Shown: positions 2,641 to 56,698 of the stretch, one piece after another | Position numbering within the stretch: the stretch's first letter is position 1 | Layout: each line of letters opens with the position of its first letter | Assembly: GCA_963792365.1 (NCBI GenBank) | Contig: CAWBVW010000001.1 | Span: forward strand, 912,592 to 976,591 | Length of the DNA: 64,000 nucleotides | Source: an uncultured bacterium | GTDB lineage: Bacteria; Actinomycetota; Acidimicrobiia; Spongiisociales; ZC4RG35 | Direction: 5' to 3' | Position numbers and translations under genes: made by a program | The notes under the pieces: generated by a model | What the model saw: only the letters and a program-made list of their open reading frames with translations | Told to the model about the DNA's origin: nothing | Databases searched by the model: none

Positions 2641-2643
2641 GGC

Positions 2644-3326: not shown

Positions 3327-3383
3327 AGGCTGAGGATCAGGTGTCGTCCGTTACGGTATTCGGCGGGCCGTCGTATCTGTGGC

Positions 3384-4010: not shown

Positions 4011-4057
4011 CGGGATCTCGGCCTCCCCAATACCCCTCAGTCAAGGAGCGCGTGATC

Positions 4058-5298: not shown

Positions 5299-5315
5299 AC
5301 AGTTGCATCAAACTG

Positions 5316-5774: not shown

Positions 5775-5808
5775 GCCTTCCCTGACTCCCGACGAGGAGA
5801 CATAAACC

Positions 5809-7851: not shown

Positions 7852-7865
7852 GCCGCCAACAGCAC

Positions 7866-8098: not shown

Positions 8099-8101
8099 CT
8101 C

Positions 8102-8371: not shown

Positions 8372-8493
8372 TACGGCGCAAGATACTCGACGAGATTTCA
8401 CATCAGAACGCATCGGCACGGATCGTTAAAGACCGGTGCCACGATTCCCATTATTAAAGCAATCGGCATCTAGGTTTAGTAAGCTGAGAACCA

Positions 8494-10541: not shown

Positions 10542-10705
10542 GTCCTCGGCAAGCTCCGGGCGGTCGCAGGGTGCTTGAGCCTTGTCCGTATCTTGTCCGT
10601 GAGAGGACGAGAAACGCTGCAAGATGACACGAACGGACCACAACCGAAATCCTTGATTTCATTGGGTTTCCGGGGGTTTCTCCTGGTCAGCGACGTCGTC
10701 AGAAG

Positions 10706-10752
10706 GGGCTTTTAACCCGTTGGTTGTGGGTTCGAGTCCCACGGGGCCCACG
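10706..10752 (+). repeat. attR: 47-bp direct repeat of the tRNA-Lys 3' half (matches 1325..1371)
   Basis: Read directly: gggcttttaacccgttggttgtgggttcgagtcccacggggcccacg is identical at 1325-1371 and 10706-10752. Confidence 0.9.
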
Positions 10753-10914
10753 TCGCTGGCCTTTGGCCAGCTAACGGAGTTCCCTCCGGAAACTCCAGCC
10801 CTGCCAGGCGATTACGAGAGCCGGACTCGAGCGCCATTGGGTTGCCGGGTGTCTGCCCTTCGCTCCGGATCCTGGCTCGTGGGTTTGTCTGTCGGTGTCC
10901 ATCTGATTCTGGGG

Positions 10915-12329: not shown

Positions 12330-15300
12330 TTGCAACCCGTGGTGAGTGATATGCCCAGGATGGAGTTCCAAGCGCTTGGCCCGCTGGCGGTGTATCGCGA
12401 CGGCGACGCAGTGGACCTCGGATCGCCGAAACAGAAAGCGGTGTTGGCGCTGCTACTCATGCACGCCAACCAGCCAGTGGCGACTGATCGGATCATCGAG
12501 GAGATCTGGGGCGACGACAGTGATGGGAAGATCAACGCCCTGCGCGTCTACGTGTCGCGGTTGCGGTCGGCCCTGGAGCCCGACCGGGGGCGAGGCGGGA
12601 GCTCCGTCCTCGAGACCAGCGGGAACGGATACCGGTTGGCGGTCGAGCCCGATCACTTCGACGTGGCCCGCTTCGAGCGGGAGCTCGCCAGGGCACGGCC
12701 GCTTCGAGGAGAGGACCCGGCCGGAACTGCGGAGGTCCTGGCGTCGGCGCTGAGCCTCTGGCGAGGTCCGGCGTACGCCGACTTCGCCTACGACAACTTC
12801 GCTCAGGTGGAGCGGGCCCGCCTACACGAGGCGCGCGTCGTGGCCTACGAGGACCGTATCGAGTCCGACTTGGCGCGGGGTCTGTCAGGCGAGCTGGTCA
12901 GCGAGCTCGAAGTGCTGCGTGACGAGCATCCGCTACGGGAACGCCTCGTGAGCCATCAGGCGCTGGCGCTCTACCGATCGGGCCGCCCCGCCGACGCCCT
13001 CCGGGCCATCGAACGATTCCGTCGCAACCTCGGTGGCGAGCTTGGCCTCGACCCTTCGCCTGGCCTGCTTCGTCTCGAAGAGCAGATTCTGCTCCACGAT
13101 CCCGCGATCCAACCCCGACATGGTGCGGCTGGTCGGGACAGGCCGAGAACAGAGGTTGCCAACCCCTTCAAGGGTCTCAGAGCCTTCACCAGCGACGACG
13201 CTCCGAACTTCTTCGGGCGGAATGCCCTGGTCGCAGAATTGCTGCGCGTCATCGGCCAGGGTCAGCGGCTGGTCGCAGTCATGGGCGCCAGTGGTTCCGG
13301 GAAGTCGAGCGTCGTCAACGCCGGGCTGCTTCCGGCATTGGCCAAGGGTGCCCTCACGGGTTCCGATCTCTGGCTGGTGGCGAACATGATGCCCGGCGCC
13401 CACCCTTTCGCAGAGCTCGAGGTAGCGCTCCTCCGCACGATCATCGACCCCCCTGACAGCCTGGACGAACAACTCCGGGACGGCGACGCCGGATTCATCC
13501 GAGCGGCCTTGCGGATACTCCCTGACAACGACAGCCATCTGCTGCTGGTGATCGACCAGTTCGAAGAGCTGTTCACGCTGGTCGATGACGCCGTCCGTCG
13601 TCGGTTCCTGTCGAACCTGGTCGCCGCGGTCGACGATCCCCACGAGCGCGTCACTGTTGTGATCACCCTGCGGGCCGACTTCTACGATCGGCCGCTCCAG
13701 CACCCCGAGTTCGGGGCCAGGCTCGGGGCAGGGGTCGTCAACGTCACGCCCATGACGGCCGAGGAGTTGGAGGAGGCCGCCCTCGAGCCTGCCCGGCAGG
13801 TGGGTGTCGGCTTCGAGCCGGCGCTACTGGGACAACTCATCTCAGACGTCGGGAGCCAGCCGAGCGCGCTGCCTCTCTTCCAGTACACGATGACGGAGCT
13901 ATTCGACCGTCGCGGTGGAGACACGCTTCTGGCCTCGTCCTACAGAGCGATGGGGGGCGTCGAAGGAGCGCTCCAACGACGCGCCACCGACTTGTACGAG
14001 CAGCTCGATCCGGCCGAGCAGGAGGCAGCACGCCAGCTGTTCTTACGGCTCGTGACGGTGTCGGAGCACGACAAGAGGACCCGGCGCCGCGTGGCGGCGA
14101 GGGAGATCGTGTCGCTGGTCGACGACACGGTGACGATGTACGCCGTGTTGAAGAAGTTCGGCGACCACCGGCTGCTTTCCTTCGACGCCGATCCCCTGAC
14201 CGGGGCGCCCACCGTCGAGGTTGCGCATGAATCACTGCTCACGGCATGGCCAACCCTGGCCGGATGGATCGACGACAGCCGGGATGATCTTCGTCGGCAT
14301 GTCAGCCTCACCGTGGCACTACGGGAGTGGCAGCTCGCCGACCACGACCCGAACTACCTGATGACGGGCGCCCGTCTCTCCGAATACGAGGCATGGAGTC
14401 GGACCTCCCAAGTGTCGCTCAACTGCGCCGAACGTGCCTACCTCGACGCCGGTGCCGCCAAACGAGCCGAGGAACGCCACATCGAGGAGAAGCAGCGTCG
14501 GCGAGAGACCAGATCCCGTCGGCGGATGTGGGCATTGATCGCCGTGATGGCGAGCGCCCTCGGCGTCGCTGCGCTCGTGCTCACTGGTGTCTTCGCCAGC
14601 GAAACGCCGGAAGTGATGTTCTTCGCCAACCGGCTGGATGACCAGTGGTTTGCCAATGTCGGGTCGGGTCTCGACCGGGCCGAGCGCGAGCTCGACATGG
14701 AACTGGTTGACGTGACATGGGCGGTCGATCCCGTGGCGGAGTTTCGGCAGCTCGCGGCGTCGGGTGCCCAGTTCATCGTCGTCAGCGATGACGTGTTCAT
14801 AGAGGTGGACCCGTCGGTGCTGGCTGACCATCCCGACGTCCAATTCGGCATCATCGAAGGGACGGCGAGCGCAGACAACGTGACCTCGGTCGAGTTCGCC
14901 AACGAGGAGGGGGCGTTCCTCGCCGGGGTGGCCGCCGCCTCCAAGAGCGAGACGGGCATCGTCGGATTCATCGGGGGAAGGAAGGAGCCGGAAGTCGAGG
15001 CGTTCCGTGCCGGATTCGAGGCGGGCGTGCAATCGGTTGATCCGCGGACCGAGGTGCTCGCCGTGTATGTCGATCAGTTCAACGAGATCAACGGTTTCGG
15101 CCGGCCCGACCTTGGAGAGGCCAGAGCGCGTGCTCTCTACCAAAGAGGGGCCGACGTGCTGTTCGCGGCGGCCGGGACCTCGGGGCACGGCATGTTCTCC
15201 GCGGCCGTAGCCGAGTCCGAGGCGCTGGGACGGGACCTGTGGGCGATCGGCGTCGACAACGACCAATGGTTCGAAGTGGAGCCCGAACAACAACAGCACG

Positions 15301-16199
15301 TGCTCACGTCCATAGTGAAACGGGGCGACCTCGCCGCGTACCGCCTGGTCGAGCACATGCTGAACGGCGGGCCGACCGGCGTCGCTTTCCGGATGGGACT
15401 CGCCGAGGGTGGCATGGCCTATTCAACCCAGAGCGACGCCCTGACCTCTGACATCGTCGCCAGGCTGGACGACGCGATCGTCGACATCTCCGAGAGCCGG
15501 ATCACGGCGCCGCCGGCCCCGACCGGTCCGACGCTGACCGTCGACTACCAGGGGAACGAAATTGTGGCGCCGCGAGGCATAGACGGTCTGGACCTGCGAG
15601 TTGCGATCGAACCGGGTACCTACCAAGTCGATGCACTCGGTGTGCCAATCGCCATCAATCTCGGTCCGGAGTGGTGGGTCCTCGACAACATCGAGGGCGC
15701 CACCGGGTTCGGGCACCCGGAGTCCAGCGGCCACGGGGATCGTGAGGTGTGGTTCTTCCGCCCGACCCTTCTTGCGGACCCGACCCAGCCCGGGGCCGAC
15801 GTCCAAGACCAGGTGTGGTGGCCCTTGGAGGACATCGACGGCTGGCTCGAGGCACTGGTCGACGGCATCGTGACCGGAGACCCGCAGGAGGTGGAGGTCG
15901 GTGGTCGGCCCGCCACCTACTTCGAGGCCGAGGTGACCGACCCCGACGTCTGCGGCCCGTTCCAACATTGCGCGGGCTTCGTCATCAACACGTTCCTCGG
16001 CCCCAGCCAGGTCAGCGCCTGGTCATTCGAGCCGGGCGTACATCACAGAGTGTGGTGGATCGACGCCGGGGACCAACCGCCGCTCGTCATCATCGCCGCA
16101 GACTTCACCGGCGACCATGATTTCGGGAAGGCGGTCGACGAACTGCTCGATGGACTCGTCATCGGCGAGTTCGGCCCACACCCGGTCGACGCTGGGTAG
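12330..16199 (+). CDS. multidomain regulator: SARP-type winged-helix + BTAD, STAND P-loop NTPase, TM helix, BMP-family (PnrA/Med-like) binding domain, C-terminal extension
   Basis: N-term OmpR/PhoB-type DNA-binding + BTAD (AfsR/DnrI-like); FKGLRAFTSDDAPNFFGR...VMGASGSGKSSV Walker A of a STAND/nSTAND-like NTPase; hydrophobic helix MWALIAVMASALGVAALVLTGVF; BMP-family signature EGAFLAGVAAASKSETGIVGFIGG. Confidence 0.8.
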   Translation: MQPVVSDMPRMEFQALGPLAVYRDGDAVDLGSPKQKAVLALLLMHANQPVATDRIIEEIWGDDSDGKINALRVYVSRLRSALEPDRGRGGSSVLETSGNGYRLAVEPDHFDVARFERELARARPLRGEDPAGTAEVLASALSLWRGPAYADFAYDNFAQVERARLHEARVVAYEDRIESDLARGLSGELVSELEVLRDEHPLRERLVSHQALALYRSGRPADALRAIERFRRNLGGELGLDPSPGLLRLEEQILLHDPAIQPRHGAAGRDRPRTEVANPFKGLRAFTSDDAPNFFGRNALVAELLRVIGQGQRLVAVMGASGSGKSSVVNAGLLPALAKGALTGSDLWLVANMMPGAHPFAELEVALLRTIIDPPDSLDEQLRDGDAGFIRAALRILPDNDSHLLLVIDQFEELFTLVDDAVRRRFLSNLVAAVDDPHERVTVVITLRADFYDRPLQHPEFGARLGAGVVNVTPMTAEELEEAALEPARQVGVGFEPALLGQLISDVGSQPSALPLFQYTMTELFDRRGGDTLLASSYRAMGGVEGALQRRATDLYEQLDPAEQEAARQLFLRLVTVSEHDKRTRRRVAAREIVSLVDDTVTMYAVLKKFGDHRLLSFDADPLTGAPTVEVAHESLLTAWPTLAGWIDDSRDDLRRHVSLTVALREWQLADHDPNYLMTGARLSEYEAWSRTSQVSLNCAERAYLDAGAAKRAEERHIEEKQRRRETRSRRRMWALIAVMASALGVAALVLTGVFASETPEVMFFANRLDDQWFANVGSGLDRAERELDMELVDVTWAVDPVAEFRQLAASGAQFIVVSDDVFIEVDPSVLADHPDVQFGIIEGTASADNVTSVEFANEEGAFLAGVAAASKSETGIVGFIGGRKEPEVEAFRAGFEAGVQSVDPRTEVLAVYVDQFNEINGFGRPDLGEARARALYQRGADVLFAAAGTSGHGMFSAAVAESEALGRDLWAIGVDNDQWFEVEPEQQQHVLTSIVKRGDLAAYRLVEHMLNGGPTGVAFRMGLAEGGMAYSTQSDALTSDIVARLDDAIVDISESRITAPPAPTGPTLTVDYQGNEIVAPRGIDGLDLRVAIEPGTYQVDALGVPIAINLGPEWWVLDNIEGATGFGHPESSGHGDREVWFFRPTLLADPTQPGADVQDQVWWPLEDIDGWLEALVDGIVTGDPQEVEVGGRPATYFEAEVTDPDVCGPFQHCAGFVINTFLGPSQVSAWSFEPGVHHRVWWIDAGDQPPLVIIAADFTGDHDFGKAVDELLDGLVIGEFGPHPVDAG

Positions 16200-27328: not shown

Positions 27329-30010
27329 TCAGAGAGCGTCAACCCCGCTGTCGGGGAACCAGTCCATCACCTCGGGCTGAACCACGGCAACCTGCTGCCA
27401 ACCGCCCCGCTTCCGAATGGCCAGATCGGTACGAACGCGATGACGTTTGCGCCTCGAGATCACGTAGACCTTCTGATCGGTCGCGACCCGTACCATCTTC
27501 CCCTCCACCGAGGCAGGGGTGGTACTCGACGTGAGCCTGTAGTTCGCGAACGAATTCACTGTGCTCACGAGCTCCCACCCGCCCAGCACTTCGACCACCA
27601 CCTCGCTCGGGACCGGCCGGAGGACGTGATCGGCGTCGACCCACCACACGGTCATGGAGTCTTTCTCTCGCAGCATCTTGCCGGCGATCGTGACCTGCTC
27701 TCCACTTTCGGGGTGCTTAGTGATGATATCGGCAGTTGCGCTCCCGCCAATGCCCGACAGGTAGAAGAATCGCTTCATCTCCTCGCGATCCTCCGGGTCG
27801 GGTGGCTGCGTTCTCACGAGGTGACGCTTGCCGCCCCGGACCCACCACGATCGTTGATCCGGGCTCACACCGAAGATCGTCTTTCCTTCGATCGAGGGCG
27901 GCGTCGGGCTCGGAGGGAAAGCGCTGGAACGCCTCTCCCGCACAGGTCCGATGGTCAGGAACGGCCTGGATTCCGCCGAGATCTCATAGCTGAGCCCGCT
28001 GTGGATCCACGCATCGGGAGCGGAGTTCGCGTCCTTTCGCACCAGAAAGCCCTCCCACGCCACGATCGTTGCCGCTGGCGCGATGTCGAAGCTCAGGTCA
28101 GCACCGACATCGTCGTCGTAGTCGAAGCCTGACGGAAAGTCATCGAGAAACCCGTCGATCTCGGTACGGAGGTCGTCATAGACGAGCGGATCCTGGAAGA
28201 AGACAGGGCTCAACAGATGTGTCAGGTCTTCGACTTCGAGCAGAACCGGAACCGGCTCGGACTCCGAGCCCACCGATCCCCGCGAGCTGACGTCGAGCCC
28301 GCTGCCGCTCTTCGACGAGTCGCTCGACTCCTGATCGGTGCTCCCGCTGACGGACGCCGAGCCACCGCCCTCGGGTGTGTGGAAACCGACATCCAGCGAC
28401 TGTTCCTGGCTCGTTCCGTGTGTCATCGACTCCGACACCGACTCCTCGGTTTCGTGTCGCTGCTCCCACGCCTTTGAGCCAAAGCTGATGGCGTGGGCGT
28501 AGTGTGTGCCGAAGCGCCCGAAGAACTCCATGATCCGCTCGGGCCTCGGGTCTAGGGCAAGCGACGCCACGGCCGACCGAAACGCCGGCGCGAGCTGTAC
28601 GGTGGCGAGGTCGACGACGATGTTGTGGGACAGGTTCATGGTCTCGGTGATCGTCGACACGGTCTTCCCGGACGATGCCGAGCTCAACTCGCCGTGCGCC
28701 TTGCTGTTGTTCTTGTACGCCACCTTCGCCCCGAACGCATCCCCTTCGGCGGAGATGCCCAGCGAGGTGGCCCAGGTCTGACGTGACTCCTCGTCCGAAA
28801 ACGCCGAGGTGGTCCTCCCCTTGTTGGTGCCTGAGACGTCACCGGCGAATTGCCATCCGTTCGGCACGACGGTGGCCTTTCCGTTCGTTGCGACGTGGAA
28901 GTCCCGGCTACCCGGAGGAGGCGAACGGAACACCTCCTGTCCAAGTGCGCCACTCGCCTCCTGCAGATTGAAGGGGGCGAGGCGCGAGATGTCGATTCCG
29001 CGGAAAGCCCACGCCAGGTAGTCCACGCGTTCGTTGAGGCTGAACACGTTGTCCCACGTCGGACCATCTTGTGCCGCAGGCGCCGGTCGGGGCGCGGCGG
29101 TGTATACGCTGCCGTCCTCGAACACGACACGAAGCTCCGCTCCGAGGTGGACCTCGACAGACCCGTATGAGTCGACCGGTTCGCCAGAACCCGGGTCGGC
29201 GCGGTGTGCCTCGAAAGCGTGAGACGACACCGTGCCATCGAGGGTCGAGACGACCAACGTGTCGTCCCACTGGTCGATCCGGCGCACGTCCACCCGCCGG
29301 TGATTCGGGTTCGGGCGCTTCGACTCCGGTGTCGGATCTCCCACGTGATCGATCCGGCCCGCGTTTTGATCCGTCTCCGAAGGCGCCTTCGGCACCCTAT
29401 CCTCGTCGAGTCGTGGCGGTCGTCCGGCGTCGACCGTGGGGACGATCCGCAGGCCGCTGGCCGAGGTTATGGCGGTCGGTCCCCGGCCATCGACCATGAA
29501 CCGCACACCGATTCCCCGGATCGCCAAGCGGTCGTAGTGGCCGAACAGCCCGCACGCACGCGGATTGAGCGGTCCGATGTCTTCTCCGCGTCGGTCGAGC
29601 ACCTTGGCGGGGATGAGTTCGTACCAGTCGCCCATTGGGACGCCGCCTGTCAGTTCCAGGCGGCCGTCCTGGGTGGCAATCCCGATCGAGTGGATCAGTC
29701 CGGACTGGTACCCGTAGAGCCCGTTGACCACGTCGTCCTCACCCAACGCCACGACTTCGTCGGGGTCAACCGAATTCGGATCGATCCCACCCACGACCGG
29801 CGAGACGAAGAGCTCGCCTGCGGCAGTCCGCCACGTCACCTGAAATGCCCTGACAACCGTGAGTGTCTGCCCGACTTCGTTACTGGGAATCGTGCCGTGC
29901 CAAACCCTGAACTGACGCACCTGTGAATCCTCGCCCCAGTTCAAGCTGAAGTGACGTCCGGTCGATTGGCCGTGGAGGGGTGATCGGAACACGTACCTCC
30001 CAACGCTCAT
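27329..30010 (-). CDS. jacalin-like lectin + MACPF (perforin-like) domain protein with two C-terminal repeats
   Basis: N-terminal beta-prism/jacalin-like glycine pattern; central FFGRFGTHYAHAISFGS matches the MACPF signature [YF]G[TS]H[FY]x6G[GS]; C-terminal duplicated about 45-aa module (EGK..DQ..GxKRHxVRT). Confidence 0.65.
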   Translation of the reverse strand: MSVGRYVFRSPLHGQSTGRHFSLNWGEDSQVRQFRVWHGTIPSNEVGQTLTVVRAFQVTWRTAAGELFVSPVVGGIDPNSVDPDEVVALGEDDVVNGLYGYQSGLIHSIGIATQDGRLELTGGVPMGDWYELIPAKVLDRRGEDIGPLNPRACGLFGHYDRLAIRGIGVRFMVDGRGPTAITSASGLRIVPTVDAGRPPRLDEDRVPKAPSETDQNAGRIDHVGDPTPESKRPNPNHRRVDVRRIDQWDDTLVVSTLDGTVSSHAFEAHRADPGSGEPVDSYGSVEVHLGAELRVVFEDGSVYTAAPRPAPAAQDGPTWDNVFSLNERVDYLAWAFRGIDISRLAPFNLQEASGALGQEVFRSPPPGSRDFHVATNGKATVVPNGWQFAGDVSGTNKGRTTSAFSDEESRQTWATSLGISAEGDAFGAKVAYKNNSKAHGELSSASSGKTVSTITETMNLSHNIVVDLATVQLAPAFRSAVASLALDPRPERIMEFFGRFGTHYAHAISFGSKAWEQRHETEESVSESMTHGTSQEQSLDVGFHTPEGGGSASVSGSTDQESSDSSKSGSGLDVSSRGSVGSESEPVPVLLEVEDLTHLLSPVFFQDPLVYDDLRTEIDGFLDDFPSGFDYDDDVGADLSFDIAPAATIVAWEGFLVRKDANSAPDAWIHSGLSYEISAESRPFLTIGPVRERRSSAFPPSPTPPSIEGKTIFGVSPDQRSWWVRGGKRHLVRTQPPDPEDREEMKRFFYLSGIGGSATADIITKHPESGEQVTIAGKMLREKDSMTVWWVDADHVLRPVPSEVVVEVLGGWELVSTVNSFANYRLTSSTTPASVEGKMVRVATDQKVYVISRRKRHRVRTDLAIRKRGGWQQVAVVQPEVMDWFPDSGVDAL

Positions 30011-47216: not shown

Positions 47217-48206
47217 TCACGGGCGTGGTGGTGTTTCCCAGTCCTGACCCCACCAGCTCCGCCGCCCTCGGGGCTTGCCGAAGCTGGCCGGCCACGGTTC
47301 GCCCGCCAGTTCACCGGCCTCATCGCGGCCCGCCAGCTCGAGGAGTGGCGCGAGGTCGAAAGCGACGTCGTCGATCGGCTCCATCAGGTCACCCACAGCC
47401 TCGTACCGCTGCGCAAAGGAGTCCATCGGGAAGTCGGAGAGCTGAGCGTCTGGAACCTCGTCCCAGCGCAGCGGCGCCGAGACCCATCCGGTTGGACGTA
47501 CCGAGTAGGCGCTTGCAACCGTCCGATCCCTGCTGTTCTGGTTGTAGTCGATGAACACTCCGTGCCGGTTCTCCTTCCACCATTCGGTGGTGACCAGATC
47601 GGGCCGGCGACGTGCCACCTCCCGCCCGAACGCCAGCGCCGCACGCCGTACGTCGAGGAACGAGTATCGCGGCTCGATCCGGACGTAGATGTGTATGCCC
47701 TTGGATCCTGAGGTCTTGGGGTACCCCGTCAGATCGTGATCATGGAGCACCTCGTCGACGAGCAGAGCTGTCGCCTGGACGTCGGACCACGTTGCCTCTG
47801 GTGTTGGGTCGAGGTCGATGCGGAGTTCGTCGGGAGACTCCACGTGCTCGACCCTGGTGGGCCAGGGGTTCAGATCCACGCAGTTGAGCTGTGCCATCCA
47901 GATCACGTCGTACGGCGTGCGCGGCACGAAATATCCAGCGGTGCGCCCGGAGGGAAACTCCACAAAGTGTCGTTCCGACGCAGTCTTCGGTGCCCGCTTC
48001 TGAAAAAACGGCGTCTCCCCCACGCCTTTCGGCCAGCGCTTCAACATCGTCGGCCGGCCGAACACGCCTGCGAGCGCACCGTCGACACAGGTCAGGAAGT
48101 GCTCCACCACGTCCAGCTTCGTCCACCCCTGCTCGGGGAACATCACCTTGCCCGGATGGGTGATCGTGATCTCTTCGCCGGCGACCTCTACGGTGACCTC
48201 GTCCAT
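47217..48206 (-). CDS. stand-alone NHEJ LigD polymerase/primase domain protein (PolDom)
   Basis: 329 aa; ITHPGKVMFPEQGWTKLDV.. N-terminus and catalytic SGSKGIHIY region typical of LigD_Pol/archaeo-eukaryotic primase-like domains. Confidence 0.85.
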   Translation of the reverse strand: MDEVTVEVAGEEITITHPGKVMFPEQGWTKLDVVEHFLTCVDGALAGVFGRPTMLKRWPKGVGETPFFQKRAPKTASERHFVEFPSGRTAGYFVPRTPYDVIWMAQLNCVDLNPWPTRVEHVESPDELRIDLDPTPEATWSDVQATALLVDEVLHDHDLTGYPKTSGSKGIHIYVRIEPRYSFLDVRRAALAFGREVARRRPDLVTTEWWKENRHGVFIDYNQNSRDRTVASAYSVRPTGWVSAPLRWDEVPDAQLSDFPMDSFAQRYEAVGDLMEPIDDVAFDLAPLLELAGRDEAGELAGEPWPASFGKPRGRRSWWGQDWETPPRP

Positions 48207-48228: not shown

Positions 48229-50088
48229 TTAGGGCAGCTCGATTCGGATCATACTGATGGTCGTGGATTCCTCATCGCCATCGTCGAACTTGATGTGGAT
48301 CGATTCGCCCTCGCGTCGATCCACCTGACCTGGGTAGTAACTGTCGAGACCCCCGTAGCGGGCGGACACGCGAGTTCCGACGCCGATCTCAATGGGAGCC
48401 AGCTCCTCTTGGCTCACCAGCGACTCGTCGCCGTCGTCGAACCTGACGTCGTAGTCATCGCCGTCCATCCCGACGATGGTGCCCGGGTAGTAGAAGGAAT
48501 CGTCCCACAGGGCGAAGACCCGCTGCCCGATCCCCCAATCGGCGATCGCACGAGGTGCGGGTGATCGGGCCGGGATGCCGTGTCGCTCCCTGATGAGCGC
48601 CTGGAGTGACTGCAGCAGTGCTGCGGCAGGTTCCGCCTTCAAAGAGTTGTATGACAGGTCATCACCCAACGCAACCTCGTGGGCGCCGGCCTGCTCCACG
48701 CGCAAAGTTGCGAACGTTTCGTAATCCACCTCGTGAGATCCGGTCGATACCGACAGCGAAGCGTTCTTGAACCACATCGAACGAACGCCGAACGCCAACC
48801 CTACCTTCGCCGACCCGAATGCTGTCTCGTCGATCAATCCGAGGATGGGTTCGTCACGGGGAACTCCATAGCGCTCGTAGGCGCTGTCCGTCTTGCGGTC
48901 GGGAATGTCAGGAGCAACGAACAGCGCGTCGGGGAGTTCCGAGAAGCCCAACAGCAAGGCCGTCAGGTCGGCGATCCACGATTCCTCGGTCCCACGAGCA
49001 GCTTCTGCAGCGATCGCCGCTTGCTCGGCTTGGTTGGCCGCGGCCACCTCCTGGGTGCGCCGCGCCGATGCATCTTCCTCAGCCTGGAGTGCCGCGGCCG
49101 CCTGTTGGGCTCGCAGCGTCTCGGCTTCCTGTTCGGCCCGCTGGGCCGCCTCTCTCCGCTCGGCCTCGTGTTCCTTCGCTCTCTCCTGAGCACGGATCGC
49201 TTCCGCCTCTTGCTCCTGCTGCGTCTGCGTGGCAGCAGCCGCATCCCGAGCCGCCTTCTCCGACTCCAGGCGAGCCGCAACCCGCTCCACGAGACCGACG
49301 ACGTCGTCGTCCTTCAGACCGAGCTTCGCCTTACGCTTCTTCAGCTCCTCCTGCGTCTTCTGATCGAAGGGCAGTCCAACATCGTTGATCGCAAACTCGA
49401 GCTCGGCTTCGTACGCCCTGATCTTCTCGAGCTCGGCATCGTGCCGTCTCATCTCGTTGTCTTCGATCTCTTTGGCGACCTTCTCTGAGAGCCCGAGGCG
49501 CGTCCGTTCCTCTTCGAGGCTTCGCCGCTCATAGGGACTGATCACGTCGTCATCGGACAATGCTTCGGCAACGCGCATGCGATAGTCGGCCTCGTCGGCG
49601 CGCCGCTGCTCGTGTTCACGCTCGATTTCCTCGACGACTTCTTCCAATTCCTTGGCGACGGCGCGTATGGCAGCATCTTCATTCGGCCAGTAGTTGTCTT
49701 CGGCTCCGATGTTGGCGACCCACCGCTCGAACCGAGGGATTGCGTGGATGTTCTCGATCCCGAACAGCTTCTTCCATGTCGTTTCGCGCAACAACACGGG
49801 GATGATTCGAGGTGGAAACTCCTCCTCCTGCACGCGCTTCAGAGCGGCTGGGAGTTCCTGTGTCGTGACAAAATCGGATGTGAGGAAGTCACGGCTGATC
49901 AGCAGCAGGATGATATCCGCAGATGCGAGGGCTTCCTCGATCTCGCTCTGCCACGCATCGCCAGGCTTGATCTCACGATCGGCCCAAACGGTGATGCCGA
50001 GGAGTAGGAGCTCGGCTGTGATCTTGCGCTGCCACTCATAGTCCACGTGCGAGTAAGACAGAAAGATCCTGAGCGATTCGTGCGCCAT
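48229..50088 (-). CDS. TIR domain protein with long coiled-coil and C-terminal tandem Tudor/Agenet-like repeats
   Basis: TIR_2 signature RIFLSYSHVDYEWQRKITAELLLLGITVWADREIKPGDAWQSEIEEALASADIILLLISRDFLTSDFVTTQEL; about 230-aa E/R/A-rich coiled coil; two repeats GxRVxA.....YYPGxI........IKFDDGDE. Confidence 0.8.
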   Translation of the reverse strand: MAHESLRIFLSYSHVDYEWQRKITAELLLLGITVWADREIKPGDAWQSEIEEALASADIILLLISRDFLTSDFVTTQELPAALKRVQEEEFPPRIIPVLLRETTWKKLFGIENIHAIPRFERWVANIGAEDNYWPNEDAAIRAVAKELEEVVEEIEREHEQRRADEADYRMRVAEALSDDDVISPYERRSLEEERTRLGLSEKVAKEIEDNEMRRHDAELEKIRAYEAELEFAINDVGLPFDQKTQEELKKRKAKLGLKDDDVVGLVERVAARLESEKAARDAAAATQTQQEQEAEAIRAQERAKEHEAERREAAQRAEQEAETLRAQQAAAALQAEEDASARRTQEVAAANQAEQAAIAAEAARGTEESWIADLTALLLGFSELPDALFVAPDIPDRKTDSAYERYGVPRDEPILGLIDETAFGSAKVGLAFGVRSMWFKNASLSVSTGSHEVDYETFATLRVEQAGAHEVALGDDLSYNSLKAEPAAALLQSLQALIRERHGIPARSPAPRAIADWGIGQRVFALWDDSFYYPGTIVGMDGDDYDVRFDDGDESLVSQEELAPIEIGVGTRVSARYGGLDSYYPGQVDRREGESIHIKFDDGDEESTTISMIRIELP

Positions 50089-50397
50089 TCTGAGCCTCTG
50101 ATGGGTTGCCTGCGGAGCGCGCGTTTCAGCACGAGCCTTGTCGGCGACTCTACAGCTCGACACTCATCCGCGCCCCCGAGCCTCACGTATGACTTTCGAT
50201 CGAGTGGGTCCAATGCTCGAGGAGACGCCTGGGCTCGAGCGGCCTCTGCGCTAGATCCGCGGTCGGTCTGTCTCTGGCATTCACATCTATTCGGTGAAGT
50301 CGTGCCGGGAAATGGACGGGACCAGGCGGAGGTCTTCGCAACGGTCTGCATGAGAAGGTGGTGCCATCCAAGTTGGCGGGGTCGAACGCGGCCGGCG

Positions 50398-53378: not shown

Positions 53379-55784
53379 GTGCTCCCCGTTAGGGTCGCGG
53401 CGATGAGTCGCGACTCCGCCGACGTTGCCTGCACGCTGGTGAACCGGCGCGCGCAGATCGCCGAGCTCTGGCATGCCATCCAGGCAGCCGACCGCGTCGC
53501 CATCGACACCGAAGTGCCGATCGACGGACCCCGCAAGGGCGAACTACGTGTGATGTCGATCGCCACCCGGTCGGAATCCGGCGAGCAAGCATTTGTCGTC
53601 GACGCCCGAGACCTGGACCCCACGCTGCTCGGCCCGATGCTCGACGGAGTGACCGCCGACGCCTGGAACGCCAACTTCGACGCCCGAGTGATCGACGCCG
53701 CCGTGTGGCACTCCTCGGACACCACGCCCGGCATCACGTGGTGGGACGCCCAGCTGGGCGACGCCCTCATCCACCAGGGACGGAGCGGGTTCAGCTGGTA
53801 TCACGGACTGGCCTGGGCGACCTCGCACTATCTGGGCATCGACGCCGAGGGCAAAGGCACGGTCCAGCTGTCATACACCGCCACCGACGATCTGACCCCC
53901 GAACAGATCTCCTATGCGGCGGCCGACGCCCTCCACACCCTCTGGGTCGCCGATGAGATCCGCTCCGAAATCGAACGCTCTCGACTCACCGAGATCTGCC
54001 AGATCGAACAGGACGCACGCCCGTTTCTCGACCAGATGGAGCGCACGGGTCTGCCGTTCGACTGGGAGGGTTGGCGCACCGAGCTGGAGCGCATCGAAAC
54101 CCGGCATCGGTCGGTGATCGACCGTCTGGCCATGCTCACCGGTGGTGGACAGGCGACGCTGTTCGACCAGACCGTGGAGCCCACGTGGAACCCCGCGTCG
54201 GACCCGCAGGTACGCGAGGTGCTGAACCGGTGGGCGGAACCGGAGGTCCGGGCATGGACCCTGAGCCGTGACGGGGCTGCTCGGCTCCTCACCGGTAGCG
54301 ACTCGCTGAGGGCGGGCGTGCTGAAGGAGATCGGCGGCGAGCTGTGCCAAACGCTGCTCGAGTTCCGCAACCAGGCGAAGATCCTCACCACCTACGGCGA
54401 CTCGATCGCCGAGCACCTCCATCCCGACGGTCGCCTCAGGCCCCAGTACCTGCAGGTGGTCGGTACCAACACCGGACGGCTGGCCAGCCGAAACCCCAAT
54501 GCCCAGAACTTCACGCCGCTGATGAAGCCATACCTGCGACCCAACCACCCGGACCGAGTGTTCGTTCACGCCGACCTCAGCCAGGCCGAACTTCGCTACC
54601 TGGCACAGGTGGCCGAAGACGAGCCCCTCCGACTGGCCTTCGCCCGGGGGGACGACGTCCATGTGACGACTGCCGCCTCCATGTTCGGGTTCGACCCCGA
54701 CGAGCTCGCCCGCACCGATCCCACGCGGTTCAAGCGGCTGAGGCAGATCGCCAAGGCGCTCAATTTCGGAATCGCCTACGGATCGGGACCGGCGGCGCTC
54801 GGCCGGTCGCTCACGAGCGAGGGAACTCCGACGACCACCGACGAGGCCGCGGAACTGCTCACCCAGTACCGCCGTACCTACCCGGGGACCGCCACCTGGG
54901 CGGAGAACCGAATTGCCGAGATCCGTCAGATCAGCGAGGAGACTGCGGCCATCGACTGGCCGATGTCTATGCGTCTCGCCCGTGGCTTCCGCGACGTCCA
55001 CGCCATCCGGAGGGAGCTGCGAGAGACCCTGAACCGCTGGCCGACCGCAGAGGAGATCGTCGAGCAGCATCCAGACCGACTCGGGTCGGATGTCGATGCT
55101 CTCCGAGATGACGTCGAGTGGCTGCTCCGCTACTCCGCCCCGGTCGCGCTCGTCCCGGGCGGCAATCCATTTCGGTTCTCCAGCCGGACGCTCGCCGGCC
55201 GGCGCCAGCAGTTCGAGCTGCACCTCGATCGGTTGTTCCTCGGAACCGTGATCGCAGCGTTCCGATCCGACGAACCCGGGTTCGCCGAGGTTCGTCGGCG
55301 GTTCGTGCTCGACCACGGGGTGGAACTCCCCCATGGCGAGCCACGAGAGTCCGAGGTCGAACGGCTTTTCGAAGAGCGTCGCCTCCGCCGGTTCTTCGTC
55401 GAGACCATCTCCGCCGAGCTCGGCGAACAGACTGCTCACGCGTGTCTGGCTCGCTCGGCCCGTGAGCGGGTGTCGACGATGGTCAACGCCTGGCGCAATG
55501 CACCCATCCAGGGTGGCGTCGCAGACATCATGCTGGTCGCCTACGCCGACCTGCACCGGCGTCTCGCCGCCGTCCCGAGCGCCCGGCCGGTGCAGACCGT
55601 CCACGACTCGGTGGTCATCGAGTGCGACCGCACCGACGCCGACCGCGTCGTCGCGGAAGTCACCGCAGCGCTCGAAGCGGCCTCCCGCCGCTTCTGTCCC
55701 GACGTGGCACCGAAGGCAGACGTCGACATCCGCACCTCGCTTGCCGAGGCAGACGTACTGGCTCCAGAGGAGAGTCGAGCGTGA
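53379..55784 (+). CDS. family-A (PolA-like) DNA polymerase with 3'-5' exonuclease domain, no 5' nuclease, and a large insertion between motifs B and C
   Basis: Exo I VAIDTEV; PolA motif A VHADLSQAELRYLAQ, motif B RQIAKALNFGIAYGSG, NAPIQGGVADIM, motif C VQTVHDSVVIEC; about 190 aa between motif B and the PIQG helix instead of the usual 50. Confidence 0.75.
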   Translation: MLPVRVAAMSRDSADVACTLVNRRAQIAELWHAIQAADRVAIDTEVPIDGPRKGELRVMSIATRSESGEQAFVVDARDLDPTLLGPMLDGVTADAWNANFDARVIDAAVWHSSDTTPGITWWDAQLGDALIHQGRSGFSWYHGLAWATSHYLGIDAEGKGTVQLSYTATDDLTPEQISYAAADALHTLWVADEIRSEIERSRLTEICQIEQDARPFLDQMERTGLPFDWEGWRTELERIETRHRSVIDRLAMLTGGGQATLFDQTVEPTWNPASDPQVREVLNRWAEPEVRAWTLSRDGAARLLTGSDSLRAGVLKEIGGELCQTLLEFRNQAKILTTYGDSIAEHLHPDGRLRPQYLQVVGTNTGRLASRNPNAQNFTPLMKPYLRPNHPDRVFVHADLSQAELRYLAQVAEDEPLRLAFARGDDVHVTTAASMFGFDPDELARTDPTRFKRLRQIAKALNFGIAYGSGPAALGRSLTSEGTPTTTDEAAELLTQYRRTYPGTATWAENRIAEIRQISEETAAIDWPMSMRLARGFRDVHAIRRELRETLNRWPTAEEIVEQHPDRLGSDVDALRDDVEWLLRYSAPVALVPGGNPFRFSSRTLAGRRQQFELHLDRLFLGTVIAAFRSDEPGFAEVRRRFVLDHGVELPHGEPRESEVERLFEERRLRRFFVETISAELGEQTAHACLARSARERVSTMVNAWRNAPIQGGVADIMLVAYADLHRRLAAVPSARPVQTVHDSVVIECDRTDADRVVAEVTAALEAASRRFCPDVAPKADVDIRTSLAEADVLAPEESRA

Positions 55785-56066
55785 GGCGAGTTGCCGTTCC
55801 GTATCCACGCTGTGGCTGACCGGGCCTGACGACCCGCATCTATCAGCGGTGGCCGATCGAGTTCGCGTTCACGCCAGGCCGCCCCACGGGGACGAGTGCG
55901 GGCCTTTCTCCGACGAAGTGTGGTCGTGCTGGGGCTACGAGTTCGGATCGACGAGAAACCCCCGGAACAGGGTCGAACGCTGTGGGTCTCACCGAAACTC
56001 GCACGCCGCGAGTGGGAAGGGCCGTACCGTTCCCTAGGAGTCGAGGATCGGATATGCTGGCATATC

Positions 56067-56288
56067 ATGAAACGGACCACCGTGAAGCTGCCCGATGAGG
56101 TCGATGCCCGGCTCCGCCACGAGGCGGAACGGCGGGGAATCACGGTTTCTGAGCTGACCCGCGAAGCGATCGAGCAGCATCTCGGCGGTCGACAGCGCCA
56201 CCTTCGCGCAGCAGGCGCCGGAAACAGCGGACGCGACGACATCTCCGAACGTATCGAAGAGATCCTCGCAGCCGAGGTGGCCCGATAA
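56067..56288 (+). CDS. ribbon-helix-helix (CopG-family) antitoxin
   Basis: MKRTTVKLPDEVDARLRHEAERRGITVSELTREAIEQHL is a canonical RHH; internal start of ORF 55896..56288. Confidence 0.75.
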   Translation: MKRTTVKLPDEVDARLRHEAERRGITVSELTREAIEQHLGGRQRHLRAAGAGNSGRDDISERIEEILAAEVAR

Positions 56289-56698
56289 CCCTCCTCGTCG
56301 ACGCGGGACCCCTCTACGCCTACGTCGATGCCGACGATCGGCATCATGCCGAGTCGCTCGACCTGCTGCTGCGATACCCGGGGCCCCTGGTCGTTCCGGC
56401 TCTCGTGATCACCGAAGTGGCGTACCTCATCGGGAGTCGGCTCGGCCCCGACGCCGAGGTCCGTTTCCTCGGGGACCTCGCGGCTGGTGAATTCTCCATC
56501 GAGAGCGTGATGGCGGGCGACTGGCTTCGAATCGCCGAACTCGTGGCTCGATATCGCGACCTCTCCCTGGGGACAGTCGATGGCTCGGTCGTCGCAACCG
56601 CGGAGCGACTCCGCATCACCACGATCGCCACGCTCGATCGCCGGCACTTTTCAGTCGTGCGCCCCACCCACACCGACGCGTTCGAGCTCTTGCCCTGA
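56282..56698 (+). CDS. PIN-domain toxin (VapC-like); start codon not identifiable
   Basis: ..ITLLVDAGPLYAYVDADDRHH...PALVITEVAYLIG...LSLGTVDGSVVATAERL.IATLDRRHF contains the PIN acidic residues; reading frame open from the RHH stop but no ATG/GTG/TTG before the conserved N-terminal D. Confidence 0.65.
   Translation, partial: PITLLVDAGPLYAYVDADDRHHAESLDLLLRYPGPLVVPALVITEVAYLIGSRLGPDAEVRFLGDLAAGEFSIESVMAGDWLRIAELVARYRDLSLGTVDGSVVATAERLRITTIATLDRRHFSVVRPTHTDAFELLP

What the first reader, a model, noticed from the sequence alone, without database searches (positions are those of the whole stretch)
53379..55784. Accessory family-A DNA polymerase with a 3'-5' exonuclease domain, no 5' nuclease and a roughly 140-aa insertion in the fingers/palm
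Motifs A (DLSQAELR), B (KALNFGIAYG) and C (VHDSVVIE), plus Exo I (DTE), identify a PolA-type enzyme. It lacks the N-terminal 5' nuclease of housekeeping Pol I. It carries an extra segment of about 140 residues between motif B and the PIQG helix. It sits next to a VapBC-like toxin-antitoxin pair and not far from the LigD PolDom gene. Non-canonical PolA paralogs occur in phages, islands and specialised repair or mutagenesis systems.
Basis: partly seen in the sequence, partly recalled or inferred. Interest (0 to 1): 0.55.

Follow-up and report, generated by a model that had tools for sequence, protein, structure and literature searches.

The report
Acidimicrobiia DNA polymerase with novel module
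This gene encodes a proofreading Pol I-type DNA polymerase, found mainly in Acidimicrobiia bacteria, that carries a confidently folded ~170-residue helical module of unknown function, with no recognisable relative, at the spot where phage T7 polymerase docks its partner proteins.

Summary
ORF 53379-55784 (+) encodes a family A DNA polymerase with conserved 3'-5' exonuclease residues and no 5' nuclease. The probable true start is ATG 53403, giving 793 aa.

The extra sequence is larger than reported, about 155-170 residues, and comes in two parts (about 517-598 and 614-700). The two parts flank the conserved SRTLAGRRQQF hairpin.

AlphaFold models the module confidently (pLDDT 94 on its own). It has no significant match in Pfam, the PDB or the viral structure library.

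Other family traits are motif C as HDS instead of HDE, and a possible beta-clamp-binding motif, GGGQxxLF, in 137 of 159 members. A leaderless-type promoter precedes the start codon in 54 of 71 loci.

The family occurs in at least 160 species-level genomes. The 80 listed are nearly all labelled Acidimicrobiia or Actinomycetota, in varied chromosomal neighbourhoods. The insert-bearing form was not found in the phage, plasmid or viral-contig collections searched.

The VapBC and LigD neighbours are incidental. A small side branch, including cultured Bailinhaonella, places the enzyme in a primase/helicase/HIRAN gene cluster.

I could not test whether a canonical polA coexists in the same genome. 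Verdict: a new variant of a known kind, of moderate interest.

The parts
53390..53395 (+). TAGGGT, a -10-like hexamer ending 7 nt before ATG 53403. This is the promoter arrangement expected for a leaderless mRNA.
   Evidence: Sequence read directly. A TAnnnT hexamer ends 6-7 nt (8 nt in one locus) before the homologous start codon in 54 of 71 related loci.
53403..55784 (+). Probable true coding sequence: 793 aa plus stop. The mechanical ORF starts at GTG 53379 and gives 801 aa.
   Evidence: ORF list. The database copy P0001 is 793 aa and 100% identical. Leaderless promoter geometry supports this start. GC3 is 0.83.
53430..53978 (+). 3'-5' exonuclease (DEDDy) domain, residues ~18-200. Exo I is D43/E45, Exo II is N97/F100/D101, Exo III is Y179/D183.
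   Evidence: Pfam PF01612 scores 37.4 bits against a cut-off of 23.6. These residues are invariant or nearly so in 22 diverse members. Exo I DxE is present in 147 of 159 members.
54141..54164 (+). GGGQATLF, residues 255-262: a family-specific segment that matches the beta-clamp-binding consensus Qxx[LIM]F.
   Evidence: Absent from insert-free relatives in hhalign. G..QxxLF occurs in 137 of 159 family members. Local pLDDT is about 81, lower than the flanking regions. Clamp binding is inferred, not shown.
54573..54596 (+). Motif A, DLSQAELR (D399 catalytic, E404 steric gate).
   Evidence: D399, S401, E404 and R406 are invariant.
54741..54782 (+). Motif B, RQIAKALNFGIAYG (R455, K459, F463, Y467).
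54927..55172 (+). Insertion 1, residues ~517-598. It has a long helical hairpin (H502-524 and H527-551) and three short helices. Residues 539-562 show a weak resemblance to sigma-70 region 3. Net charge is mildly acidic.
   Evidence: hhalign gap against insert-free relatives. AlphaFold secondary structure. Sigma70_r3 is hit by 7 of 20 members at E<=0.1, below Pfam's threshold. Charge.
55173..55217 (+). Conserved beta-hairpin, residues 599-613 (FSSRTLAGRRQQF). It corresponds to the GYVxTLxGRR hairpin of Pol I and to WIKGLDGRKVHV (592-603) of T7 DNA polymerase.
   Evidence: Aligned to TLxGRRR of insert-free relatives. Strands E599-603 and E609-613 in the model. T7 numbering from the PDB sequence. 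The T7 correspondence is at motif level (inference).
55218..55478 (+). Insertion 2, residues ~614-700: five helices leading into the Q helix. Net charge is mildly basic, and basic positions R662 and R670 are conserved.
   Evidence: hhalign gap. AlphaFold. Charge and conservation.
55497..55514 (+). NAPIQG, residues 707-712: start of the Q helix (Klenow N845/Q849 equivalents).
   Evidence: Klenow alignment. N707, P709 and Q711 are invariant.
55599..55622 (+). Motif C, VHDSVVIE, residues 741-748. The catalytic Asp D743 is kept, but the following Glu of the canonical HDE is Ser.
   Evidence: H742, D743 and S744 are invariant in A2. HDS occurs in 151 of the 155 members where motif C was found. HDS is also present in distantly related viral PolAs.

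Best explanation
[quoted passage not shown] It belongs to a previously undescribed subfamily that is found mainly in Acidimicrobiia and appears chromosomal.

SHOWN:
- The Klenow-like fold and the conserved catalytic and exonuclease residues.
- Two family-specific insertions totalling about 155-170 residues. Together with the conserved fingers/palm hairpin they fold into one compact, mostly helical module with no detectable relative.
- A conserved GGGQxxLF segment between the exonuclease domain and the thumb.
- An HDS motif C.
- A conserved promoter geometry of the leaderless-mRNA type.
- Variable chromosomal neighbourhoods.

INFERRED:
- The enzyme is an accessory DNA-repair or gap-filling polymerase that works beside a canonical Pol I.
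- It is tethered to the beta sliding clamp through QxxLF.
- The module sits on the leading ('front') face of the polymerase. [quoted passage not shown]
- The module therefore most likely binds a partner protein (SSB, primase or helicase) or the downstream template DNA. A weakly sigma-region-3-like helix-turn-helix in insertion 1 and the mildly basic insertion 2 fit this.
- The lineage probably descends from a polymerase of a mobile replication module. A side branch still sits beside DnaG-type primase, SNF2 helicase and HIRAN genes, and distant phage polymerases share its SQAELR and HDS motif variants. In Acidimicrobiia it has become a stand-alone chromosomal gene.
For: Identity and fold:
- Pfam and NCBIfam assignments and the Klenow alignment.
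- Full-length AlphaFold model with pLDDT 91 and pTM 0.90.
- Foldseek against Bst, Klenow and M. smegmatis Pol1 gives TM 0.77-0.84 normalised by target but only 0.58-0.64 normalised by query.

Insertions:
- Two insertions delimited by hhalign against insert-free relatives.
- Present across 22 diverse members at 31-68% identity.
- Motif B to Q-helix spacing of 220-300 residues in 156 of 159 members.
- The module alone models at pLDDT 93.9 and pTM 0.88.
- No significant PDB or viral structure match and no Pfam match.

Family traits:
- QxxLF, HDS and Exo I counts.
- Leaderless-type promoter in 54 of 71 loci.

Distribution and context:
- 160 species-level genomes. The 80 listed are nearly all labelled Acidimicrobiia or Actinomycetota and include three complete chromosomes.
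- No neighbour shared by more than 16 of 82 loci. PIN is unique to the window and LigD occurs in 5 of 82.
- Ordinary metabolic and housekeeping neighbours in two relatives, one on a circular 3.48 Mb contig, such as leuA and ldh.
- No insert-bearing form in the phage, plasmid or viral-contig collections.
- Scores far below the canonical Pol I cut-offs.

T7 comparison:
- Front basic patch residues K587, K589, R590, R591, K594 and R599 (bioRxiv 10.1101/2025.03.07.642097), mapped onto the PDB sequence W592...G598-R599-K600...N611...Q615.

Origin:
- Side-branch gene cluster.
- Viral PolAs with DFSQAELR and VHDS.
Against: - A canonical polA in the same genomes was not demonstrated, so 'accessory' rests on the near-universality of Pol I (background knowledge) and on analogy with other second PolAs.
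- No coordinates were available, so the module's position relative to DNA is inferred from its sequence position, not measured.
- The sigma-region-3 similarity is below threshold (best 24.6 vs 25.3 bits) and covers only about 24 positions. Foldseek hits to sigma factors are not significant (E>=0.3).
- QxxLF is modelled as a short beta-strand, not as a clearly disordered loop, and clamp binding is untested.
- Insertion 1 is acidic, which fits direct DNA binding poorly.
- No LexA box is enriched upstream, and the PafBC-type motif is inconclusive at 13/77 vs 7/83 in controls. So there is no evidence that the gene is damage-inducible.
- The Glu-to-Ser change in motif C might lower activity.
Confidence: 0.6

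Rival explanations
1. It is the only PolA-type polymerase of these genomes. In this reading it is the housekeeping Pol I, with the 5' nuclease (FEN) function encoded by a separate gene, as reported for some Aquificae.
For: - It is widespread, appears chromosomal, and has its own conserved promoter.
- The catalytic and proofreading residues are intact.
- The classification paper notes that a non-canonical PolA replaces Pol I in some Aquificae (PMC10201439).
- I could not show a canonical polA in the same genome.
Against: - Only about 160 species-level genomes matched in a collection of 185,579 species. Acidimicrobiia alone hold far more species than that (background knowledge).
- No FEN gene lies in any of the 82 loci.
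- TIGR00593 polA is a near-universal bacterial marker (background knowledge).
- The same family occurs in Bailinhaonella, a member of the Actinomycetes. As far as I know, that class carries canonical polA.
- Other second PolAs of Actinobacteria do not replace Pol I (PMC10201439).
Confidence: 0.12
2. It is the replicative polymerase of an integrated phage or other mobile element that is still mobile in this genome.
For: - Its motif variants (SQAELR, HDS) are shared with viral PolAs.
- The side branch sits in a primase/helicase/sigma cluster, with a faint dNMP-kinase hit in one locus.
- The window contains an integrase island and a TA pair.
Against: - The tRNA-Lys/integrase island is bounded by its att repeat at about 1.4-10.75 kb, more than 42 kb from the gene.
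- GC and GC3 match the surrounding genes.
- Neighbours are metabolic or housekeeping genes and differ between genomes.
- None of the side-branch partner genes lies within 8 kb in the 82 loci of the Acidimicrobiia-type main family.
- No phage, plasmid or IMG/VR record has the insert-bearing form.
Confidence: 0.07
3. It is a catalytically impaired polymerase-like protein. The Glu-to-Ser change in motif C and the bulky module would have turned it into a DNA-binding or scaffolding factor.
For: Motif C is HDS rather than HDE throughout the family.
Against: - Both metal-binding aspartates (D399, D743) and the dNTP-binding residues R455, K459, F463 and Y467 are invariant or nearly so. So are the steric-gate residue E404 and the full exonuclease site.
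- Insert-free viral PolAs that are presumably replicases also have HDS.
Confidence: 0.05
4. The extra sequence is an alignment artefact, an intein or a recently inserted mobile sequence.
For: None beyond the initial uncertainty. A naive three-sequence MAFFT alignment did misplace the motifs.
Against: - HMMER, hhalign and the fold model all agree on the boundaries.
- The segment is conserved down to 31% identity.
- It is split by a conserved catalytic-core hairpin.
- It has no intein HN motif, and its two halves are unrelated to each other.
Confidence: 0.01

Closest known systems
Bacterial DNA polymerase I large (Klenow/Bst) fragment
   Same: It has a 3'-5' exonuclease domain plus thumb, palm and fingers. 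Motifs A and B, the TGR motif, the NxPxQG helix and both catalytic aspartates are kept. Foldseek TM normalised by the target is 0.77-0.84.
   Different: There is no 5' nuclease. About 155 extra residues flank the fingers/palm hairpin. Motif C is HDS rather than HDE, and Ala replaces Klenow I709 in motif A. A GGGQxxLF segment is added. Scores are far below the TIGR00593 and NF004397 cut-offs.
NCBIfam PRK14975 'bifunctional 3'-5' exonuclease/DNA polymerase' (NF011539) and the insert-free relatives in alignment A4
   Same: The architecture is the same: exonuclease plus polymerase with no 5' nuclease. NF011539 is the best-scoring NCBIfam model. hhalign gives probability 100% over 562 columns.
   Different: The score is 245.8 bits against a cut-off of 640. 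These relatives have only a few residues where this family has insertions 1 and 2. They lack GGGQxxLF and have HDE and SQIELR.
APEX 1 / APEX 2 actinobacterial accessory PolAs (Czernecki et al. 2023, PMC10201439)
   Same: These are a second PolA on actinobacterial chromosomes, without a 5' nuclease and not of prophage origin. A repair role is proposed for them.
   Different: APEX enzymes lack the exonuclease DxE motif and have Leu at motif B position 3. APEX 2 has AGR in place of TGR. This family has DTE, Phe and TGR. No comparable insertion is described for APEX.
T7 DNA polymerase (gp5) front basic patch
   Same: The same structural site is elaborated. T7 residues K587-R591, K594 and R599 lie in and just before the hairpin that precedes N611/Q615. 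Here, insertions 1 and 2 flank the homologous hairpin that precedes N707/Q711.
   Different: T7 has a handful of basic residues there, and its large insertion (the thioredoxin-binding domain) is in the thumb. Here a ~170-residue helical module is built at the site. No partner protein is known.
Polymerase-domain insertions of plant organellar polymerases and Pol theta
   Same: Lineage-specific insertions in the polymerase domain of a family A enzyme give it extra capabilities such as lesion bypass, end joining and DNA grasping (PMC7699545).
   Different: Those insertions are short loops at other positions and are unrelated in sequence. This module is much larger, is modelled as structured, and lies between the O2/P helices and the Q helix.

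Membership tests
Family A DNA polymerase (Pfam PF00476) | Profile score above the gathering threshold | tested here: met
   170.7 bits against a cut-off of 34.3, split into two stretches by the insertion.
Family A DNA polymerase (Pfam PF00476) | Motif A catalytic Asp, motif B R/K/F/Y residues, motif C catalytic Asp | tested here: met
   D399, R455, K459, F463, Y467 and D743 are present and invariant or nearly so in the family. The second acidic residue of motif C is Ser, not Glu.
Family A DNA polymerase (Pfam PF00476) | Klenow-like right-hand fold | tested here: met
   AlphaFold pLDDT 91. Foldseek E=1e-22 to 3e-26 against Bst, Klenow and M. smegmatis Pol1.
DEDDy 3'-5' exonuclease (Pfam PF01612) | Exo I DxE, Exo II NxxxD, Exo III YxxxD, and a profile score above threshold | tested here: met
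   D43/E45, N97/D101 and Y179/D183 are present. The score is 37.4 bits against a cut-off of 23.6.
Canonical bacterial DNA polymerase I (TIGR00593 / NF004397) | N-terminal 5'-3' exonuclease (FEN) domain | tested here: not met
   The exonuclease domain starts at about residue 18. There is no PF02739 or PF01367 hit, and none in 9 longer relatives.
Canonical bacterial DNA polymerase I (TIGR00593 / NF004397) | Score at or above NCBI's curated cut-off | tested here: not met
   166.2 vs 600 bits and 182.4 vs 720 bits.
PRK14975 bifunctional 3'-5' exonuclease/DNA polymerase (NF011539) | Score at or above the curated cut-off | tested here: not met
   245.8 vs 640 bits. The domain architecture, however, is the same.
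APEX 1/2 (PMC10201439) | Loss of the exonuclease DxE motif (sealed exonuclease pocket) | tested here: not met
   DTE is present, and DxE is found in 147 of 159 members. Definition.
APEX 1/2 (PMC10201439) | Leu at motif B position 3 (APEX 2 also has AGR in place of TGR) | tested here: not met
   ALNFG has Phe, and the TGR motif reads NTGRL. Definitions.
Accessory (second) PolA coexisting with Pol I | A canonical polA elsewhere in the same genome | not testable with these tools
   No Acidimicrobiia Pol I seed could be obtained. No FEN or polA gene lies in the 82 loci.
Beta-clamp-binding motif (QL[SD]LF class) | Consensus Qxx[LIM]F conserved in an exposed linker | tested here: inconclusive
   The sequence criterion is met: QATLF here, and G..QxxLF in 137 of 159 members. 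The segment is family-specific. Exposure is uncertain because pLDDT is about 81 and it is modelled as a short strand. Binding cannot be tested here.
Sigma-70 region 3 (Pfam PF04539) | Profile score above the gathering threshold, or a significant fold match | tested here: not met
   The best score is 24.6 vs 25.3 bits. Seven of 20 members match at E<=0.1. Foldseek hits to sigma factors have E>=0.3 and TM<=0.24.
Intein | Terminal splicing motifs (C-terminal HN followed by Cys/Ser/Thr) and a contiguous insert | tested here: not met
   There is no HN in residues 500-705, and the insert is split by a conserved core hairpin.
Known anti-phage defence systems (PADLOC) | Match to a defence-system protein model | tested here: not met
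   Only a generic 28.9-bit hit over the PolA core to a DRT-associated model.

The most novel reading that the evidence does not exclude
The ~170-residue module is a new kind of polymerase accessory domain, built on the 'front basic patch' hairpin. It would act as a built-in docking and DNA-handling platform: an HTH-like element plus a basic helical bundle that couples the polymerase to SSB, primase or helicase, or to downstream DNA. Together with an internal clamp-binding motif, it would turn a phage-derived PolA into a clamp-tethered, partner-coupled polymerase that Acidimicrobiia domesticated from a mobile replication module.
Probability: 0.25. Interest if true: 0.65.

Novelty: new variant of a known kind. 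Interest (0 to 1): 0.5.

Why it matters
Family A polymerases are among the best-studied enzymes, and their lineage-specific insertions repeatedly turn out to carry the function that sets a subfamily apart. Examples are the T7 thioredoxin-binding domain, the Pol gamma AID, and the Pol theta and plant organellar polymerase insertions.

The main text of the 2023 reclassification of the family into 19 clusters (PMC10201439) mentions only three newly found structured insertions of about 50 residues or more. It describes nothing at this site, and no Acidimicrobiia subfamily.

A confidently folded ~170-residue module with no detectable relative, at the face where T7 polymerase meets SSB and helicase, is a concrete and testable new structural feature.

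The enzyme occurs in abundant environmental bacteria, including marine and soil Acidimicrobiia, sponge symbionts and Microthrix from wastewater. It may therefore reveal how these organisms fill gaps or restart synthesis.

Proofreading PolAs with extra DNA- or partner-binding domains are also of practical interest for processive or strand-displacing amplification.

Tried and rejected
**Approaches that failed or were unavailable**
HMMER and hhalign were used instead.
- Exact look-ups of P0001 and P0153 found no record.
- The classification paper's supplementary tables are not held.
- The third homology search was left unused, because any query built from the insert would have returned only family members among its top 120.

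**Canonical polA in the same genome**
- The longest hits of the exhaustive search (P0231, P0233, P0262) proved to be polymerases with primase-like or UDG-like N-termini, as in mobile elements, not Pol I.
- None of nine longer family members has a 5' nuclease.
- A Taq 5'-nuclease probe found nothing in the 82 loci.

**Ideas tested and rejected**
- LexA boxes are not enriched upstream, and the PafBC/RecA-independent promoter motif is inconclusive.
- There is no internal duplication between the two insert halves and no intein motifs.
- The polymerase is not a recognised defence-system component.
- VapBC and LigD are not functional partners.
- The polymerase is not cargo of the tRNA-Lys/integrase island.
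Full report
**1. The observation**

An 801-codon ORF lies at exactly 53379..55784 on the + strand. Its codon-position composition (GC3 0.83, GC2 0.49) marks it as the coding frame among the many overlapping high-GC ORFs.

Pfam assigns DNA_pol_A (170.7 bits, split into two stretches) and the 3'-5' exonuclease domain DNA_pol_A_exo1 (37.4 bits).
- Exo I: AIDTEVP, 41-47
- Exo II: NANFD, 97-101
- Exo III: YAAAD, 179-183
- Motif A: DLSQAELR, 399-406
- Motif B: KALNFGIAYG, 459-468
- NAPIQG: 707-712
- Motif C: VHDSVVIE, 741-748

The exonuclease domain begins at about residue 18, so there is no 5' nuclease.

**2. The insertion**

phmmer against PDB sequences aligns Klenow 281-486 to query 306-516, and Klenow 514-589 to query 700-774. 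So 184 residues stand where Klenow has 28.

A naive three-sequence MAFFT alignment misplaced this region and was discarded. A profile-profile alignment of 22 diverse family members (A2) against 15 insert-free relatives (A4) is unambiguous:
- The hairpin SRTLAGRRQQF aligns with the relatives' TLxGRRR.
- Insertion 1 (about 517-598) precedes the hairpin.
- Insertion 2 (about 614-700) follows it, ahead of the NxPIQG helix.

The net gain is about 155 residues relative to Klenow, and the insertion is in two parts. Family-wide median lengths are 92 and 97 residues.

**3. Structure**

With the 22-sequence alignment, AlphaFold2 gives a confident model: pLDDT 91 and pTM 0.90, with the inserted region at about 78-96.

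Foldseek finds Bst, Klenow, Aquifex and M. smegmatis Pol I with TM 0.77-0.84 normalised by the target. Normalised by the query the TM is only 0.58-0.64, as expected for about 200 extra residues.

The extra residues are almost all helical:
- A long helical hairpin (H502-524 and H527-551).
- Three short helices (557-582).
- The canonical beta-hairpin (E599-603 and E609-613).
- Five helices (616-700) that run into the Q helix.

Residues 497-706 modelled alone fold even more confidently, at pLDDT 93.9 and pTM 0.88. The two insertions and the hairpin therefore form one self-contained module.

The two halves are not duplicates of each other, and there are no intein motifs.

One weak signal recurs. 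Seven of 20 family inserts hit Pfam Sigma70_r3 at E<=0.1 (best 7.2e-5). In the window sequence the match covers residues 539-562, and no other family recurs in more than two members. Sigma factors also dominate the non-significant Foldseek list. This is below Pfam's threshold and covers only about 24 model positions, so I treat it as a lead for a helix-turn-helix-like element and nothing more.

Insertion 1 is mildly acidic (median charge -4). Insertion 2 is mildly basic (+4), on a strongly acidic core (-21).

**4. Other family traits**

Across 159 family-type proteins:
- Motif C is HDS in 151 of the 155 where it was found, rather than the canonical HDE.
- Motif A is D-x-SQAELR, with Ala where Klenow has I709.
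- Exo I DxE is kept in 147.
- A segment G..QxxLF (GGGQATLF, residues 255-262 here) is present in 137.

That last segment is missing from the insert-free relatives. It follows a glycine run and has lower local confidence than its flanks. It matches the Qxx[LIM]F beta-clamp-binding consensus, which I cite from background knowledge. Clamp binding is an inference.

The catalytic aspartates, the dNTP-binding residues of motif B and the steric-gate Glu are invariant or nearly so. So are all four exonuclease carboxylates. I therefore expect an active, proofreading, dNTP-specific polymerase.

Insert-free viral PolAs of about 505 residues also have DFSQAELR and VHDS. Those two motif variants are therefore clade traits and not signs of inactivation.

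**5. Start codon and promoter**

The database copy of the protein is 793 residues long and starts at M9.

In 54 of 71 evaluable loci, a TAnnnT hexamer (mostly TAGGGT, TAGGCT or TAGTGT) ends 6-7 nt before the homologous start codon. In the window it reads TAGGGT (53390-53395), then cgcggcg, then ATG 53403.

This is the arrangement of leaderless mRNAs common in Actinobacteria (background knowledge). It implies that the gene has its own promoter despite the short gap to the upstream membrane-protein gene.

LexA boxes are not enriched, and a PafBC-type motif is inconclusive.

**6. Distribution and context**

- The first homology search returned 579 proteins at E<=1e-5. The top 120 are about 790 residues long and 65-100% identical, and those with names are Acidimicrobiia or Actinomycetota MAGs.
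- The exhaustive representative search shows about 90 clusters (at the 50% identity level) aligning end to end through the insert, down to about 31% identity.
- The genome scan found 160 species-level genomes. The 80 listed are nearly all labelled Acidimicrobiia or Actinomycetota (Acidimicrobiales, Ca. Microthrix, MedAcidi-G3, Poriferisodalaceae), and one is labelled Acidobacteria. They include the complete chromosomes OZ244213.1, OZ245048.1 and OZ244139.1.
- Clustering the ORFs of 82 loci shows no neighbour shared by more than 16 loci.
- The PIN toxin gene next to the polymerase occurs only in this window and is missing even from the 92%-identical relative L053. LigD Prim-Pol lies within 8 kb in 5 of 82 loci, four of them close relatives at 66-92% identity. 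No 5'-nuclease gene occurs in any locus.
- In two relatives on long contigs, one of them circular (3.48 Mb), the neighbours are leuA/leuB/leuCD/greA or lactate/malate dehydrogenase and xanthine-dehydrogenase genes.
- No phage or plasmid record covers 80% or more of the protein.
- IMG/VR holds only insert-free relatives at 23-37% identity.
- PADLOC gives only a generic hit.
- The window's one recognisable island (tRNA-Lys, integrase, Fic) is bounded by its att repeat at about 1.4-10.75 kb, far from the gene.

In this lineage, then, the gene is a stand-alone chromosomal gene, and its VapBC and LigD neighbours are incidental.

**7. A side branch with a different setting**

The most distant insert-bearing members (31-37% identity) include the one cultured carrier found, Bailinhaonella thermotolerans (WP_202638698.1).

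In four independent loci with GC from 44% to 73% or more (GC was measured for two of them), the polymerase sits in a conserved cluster:
- One to three sigma-like genes (in all four loci).
- An SNF2 helicase (in three of the four).
- A HIRAN-domain protein (in all four).
- A DnaG/Toprim-type primase or Toprim-like gene, transcribed divergently from the polymerase in three loci and lying just downstream of it in the Bailinhaonella locus.
- A NusA-KH-like protein (in two).
- Variably: thioredoxin, thymidylate synthase, NDK, a faint dNMP-kinase hit and RuvB.

PHROG matches are generic. None of these partners lies near the gene in the 82 loci of the Acidimicrobiia-type main family. After its own small branch, the nearest relatives of the Bailinhaonella protein are the Acidimicrobiia proteins.

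This suggests, but does not prove, that the insert-bearing polymerase arose within a self-contained replication module and became a solitary gene in Acidimicrobiia.

**8. How it most likely works**

The site of the module is informative. In T7 DNA polymerase the 'front basic patch' is where the acidic C-terminal tails of SSB dock. It comprises K587, K589, R590 and R591, plus K594 and R599 (bioRxiv 10.1101/2025.03.07.642097). A basic fingers patch also docks the helicase tail (PMC7699545).

The PDB sequence of T7 polymerase reads W592-I-K594-G-L-D-G598-R599-K600-V-H-V603, followed seven residues later by N611...Q615. By motif-level inference this is the same hairpin-then-NxxxQ arrangement as S602...G607-R608-R609...F612 followed by N707...Q711 here.
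- Insertion 1 joins the hairpin exactly where T7 has K587-R591.
- Insertion 2 fills what is a seven-residue linker in T7.

I therefore propose that the module sits on the leading face of the enzyme. There it would engage a partner (SSB, primase or helicase) or the downstream template, while the QxxLF segment near the thumb base tethers the enzyme to the sliding clamp on the product duplex.

Shown: fold, conserved residues, boundaries, distribution and promoter geometry. Inferred: clamp binding, the module's position and role, and an accessory repair or gap-filling function.

**9. Comparison with known families**

The enzyme is a family A polymerase by every test. It fails the tests for canonical Pol I (no 5' nuclease; 166 vs 600 and 182 vs 720 bits) and for NCBI's PRK14975 model (245.8 vs 640 bits).

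It is not an APEX 1 or APEX 2 enzyme. Those lack the DxE motif and have Leu at motif B position 3, and APEX 2 also has AGR in place of TGR (PMC10201439). This family has DTE, Phe and TGR.

In its main text, that 19-cluster classification mentions three newly found structured insertions of about 50 residues or more. It describes none at this site, and it mentions no Acidimicrobiia.

**10. What remains open**

I put the 'accessory' reading at about 0.85 on four grounds:
- Pol I is near-universal in bacteria (background knowledge).
- The family is present in only about 160 species-level genomes.
- There is no adjacent FEN gene.
- There is precedent from other second PolAs.

The module's function is unknown. 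The proposal above can be tested by the experiments listed under next steps.

**11. Verdict**

The feature is real and well conserved, and as far as I could find it is undescribed. It is a new variant of a known kind, of moderate interest.

Noticed in passing
L163 (3913-8445), L166 (7311-11928), L168 (314-15073), L169 (478-14269): A distant side branch of the same insert-bearing polymerase includes cultured Bailinhaonella thermotolerans (WP_202638698.1). There the gene sits in a conserved cluster with sigma-like genes, an SNF2 helicase, a HIRAN protein, a DnaG/Toprim primase and a NusA-KH-like protein. Thioredoxin, ThyA, NDK, a faint dNMP-kinase hit and RuvB appear variably. GC is 44% in L163 and 73% in L166. 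The cluster looks like a self-contained replication module of unknown replicon type.
   Followed up: partly
window 48229-50163 (-): A 644-aa protein has an N-terminal TIR domain (ThsB-like in PADLOC, 79 bits), a long charged coiled region and two C-terminal Tudor-like domains. This is an unusual bacterial combination. No ThsA-type partner was seen nearby. Homologues lie beside the polymerase in only L014 and L053.
   Followed up: partly
window 55896-56698 (+): An RHH antitoxin and a PIN toxin (VapBC-type) overlap by 4 nt directly downstream of the polymerase. The PIN gene has no counterpart in any of the other 81 loci, not even the 92%-identical relative L053, so it may be a recent insertion.
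   Followed up: yes
window 1297-10753: An integrated element of about 9.4 kb sits at tRNA-Lys (1297-1370). Its att repeat (1325 onward) recurs at about 10706-10753. It carries a tyrosine integrase (1579-2640, -), a 680-aa protein with a C-terminal neocarzinostatin-family domain (5809-7851) and a Fic/DOC protein (8494-9684).
   Followed up: partly
window 12330-16199 (+): A 1289-aa protein fuses a winged-helix/BTAD transcriptional activator, a STAND NTPase (nSTAND1, 384 bits) and a PnrA/Bmp-like substrate-binding domain.
   Followed up: no
window 27329-30010 (-): An 893-aa protein has a MACPF (perforin-like) domain, which is uncommon in Actinomycetota.
   Followed up: no
P0066, P0042 and about 10 other relatives (~1080-1120 aa): Some Acidimicrobiia orthologues carry a C-terminal extension of about 290 residues that ends in a GNAT acetyltransferase domain (residues ~990-1080). 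It is either a polymerase-acetyltransferase fusion or a read-through gene call.
   Followed up: partly
window 47217-48206 (-): A stand-alone LigD-type primase-polymerase gene (PF21686, 246 bits) has no Ku or ligase gene among the neighbours I annotated. It lies within 8 kb of the polymerase in only 5 of 82 loci, four of them close relatives.
   Followed up: partly
L084, L093, L109 (IMG/VR contigs): Viral PolAs of about 505 residues contain only the polymerase domain, with motif A at residue ~250 and no exonuclease domain in the same ORF. They share the DFSQAELR and VHDS motif variants with the Acidimicrobiia family.
   Followed up: partly
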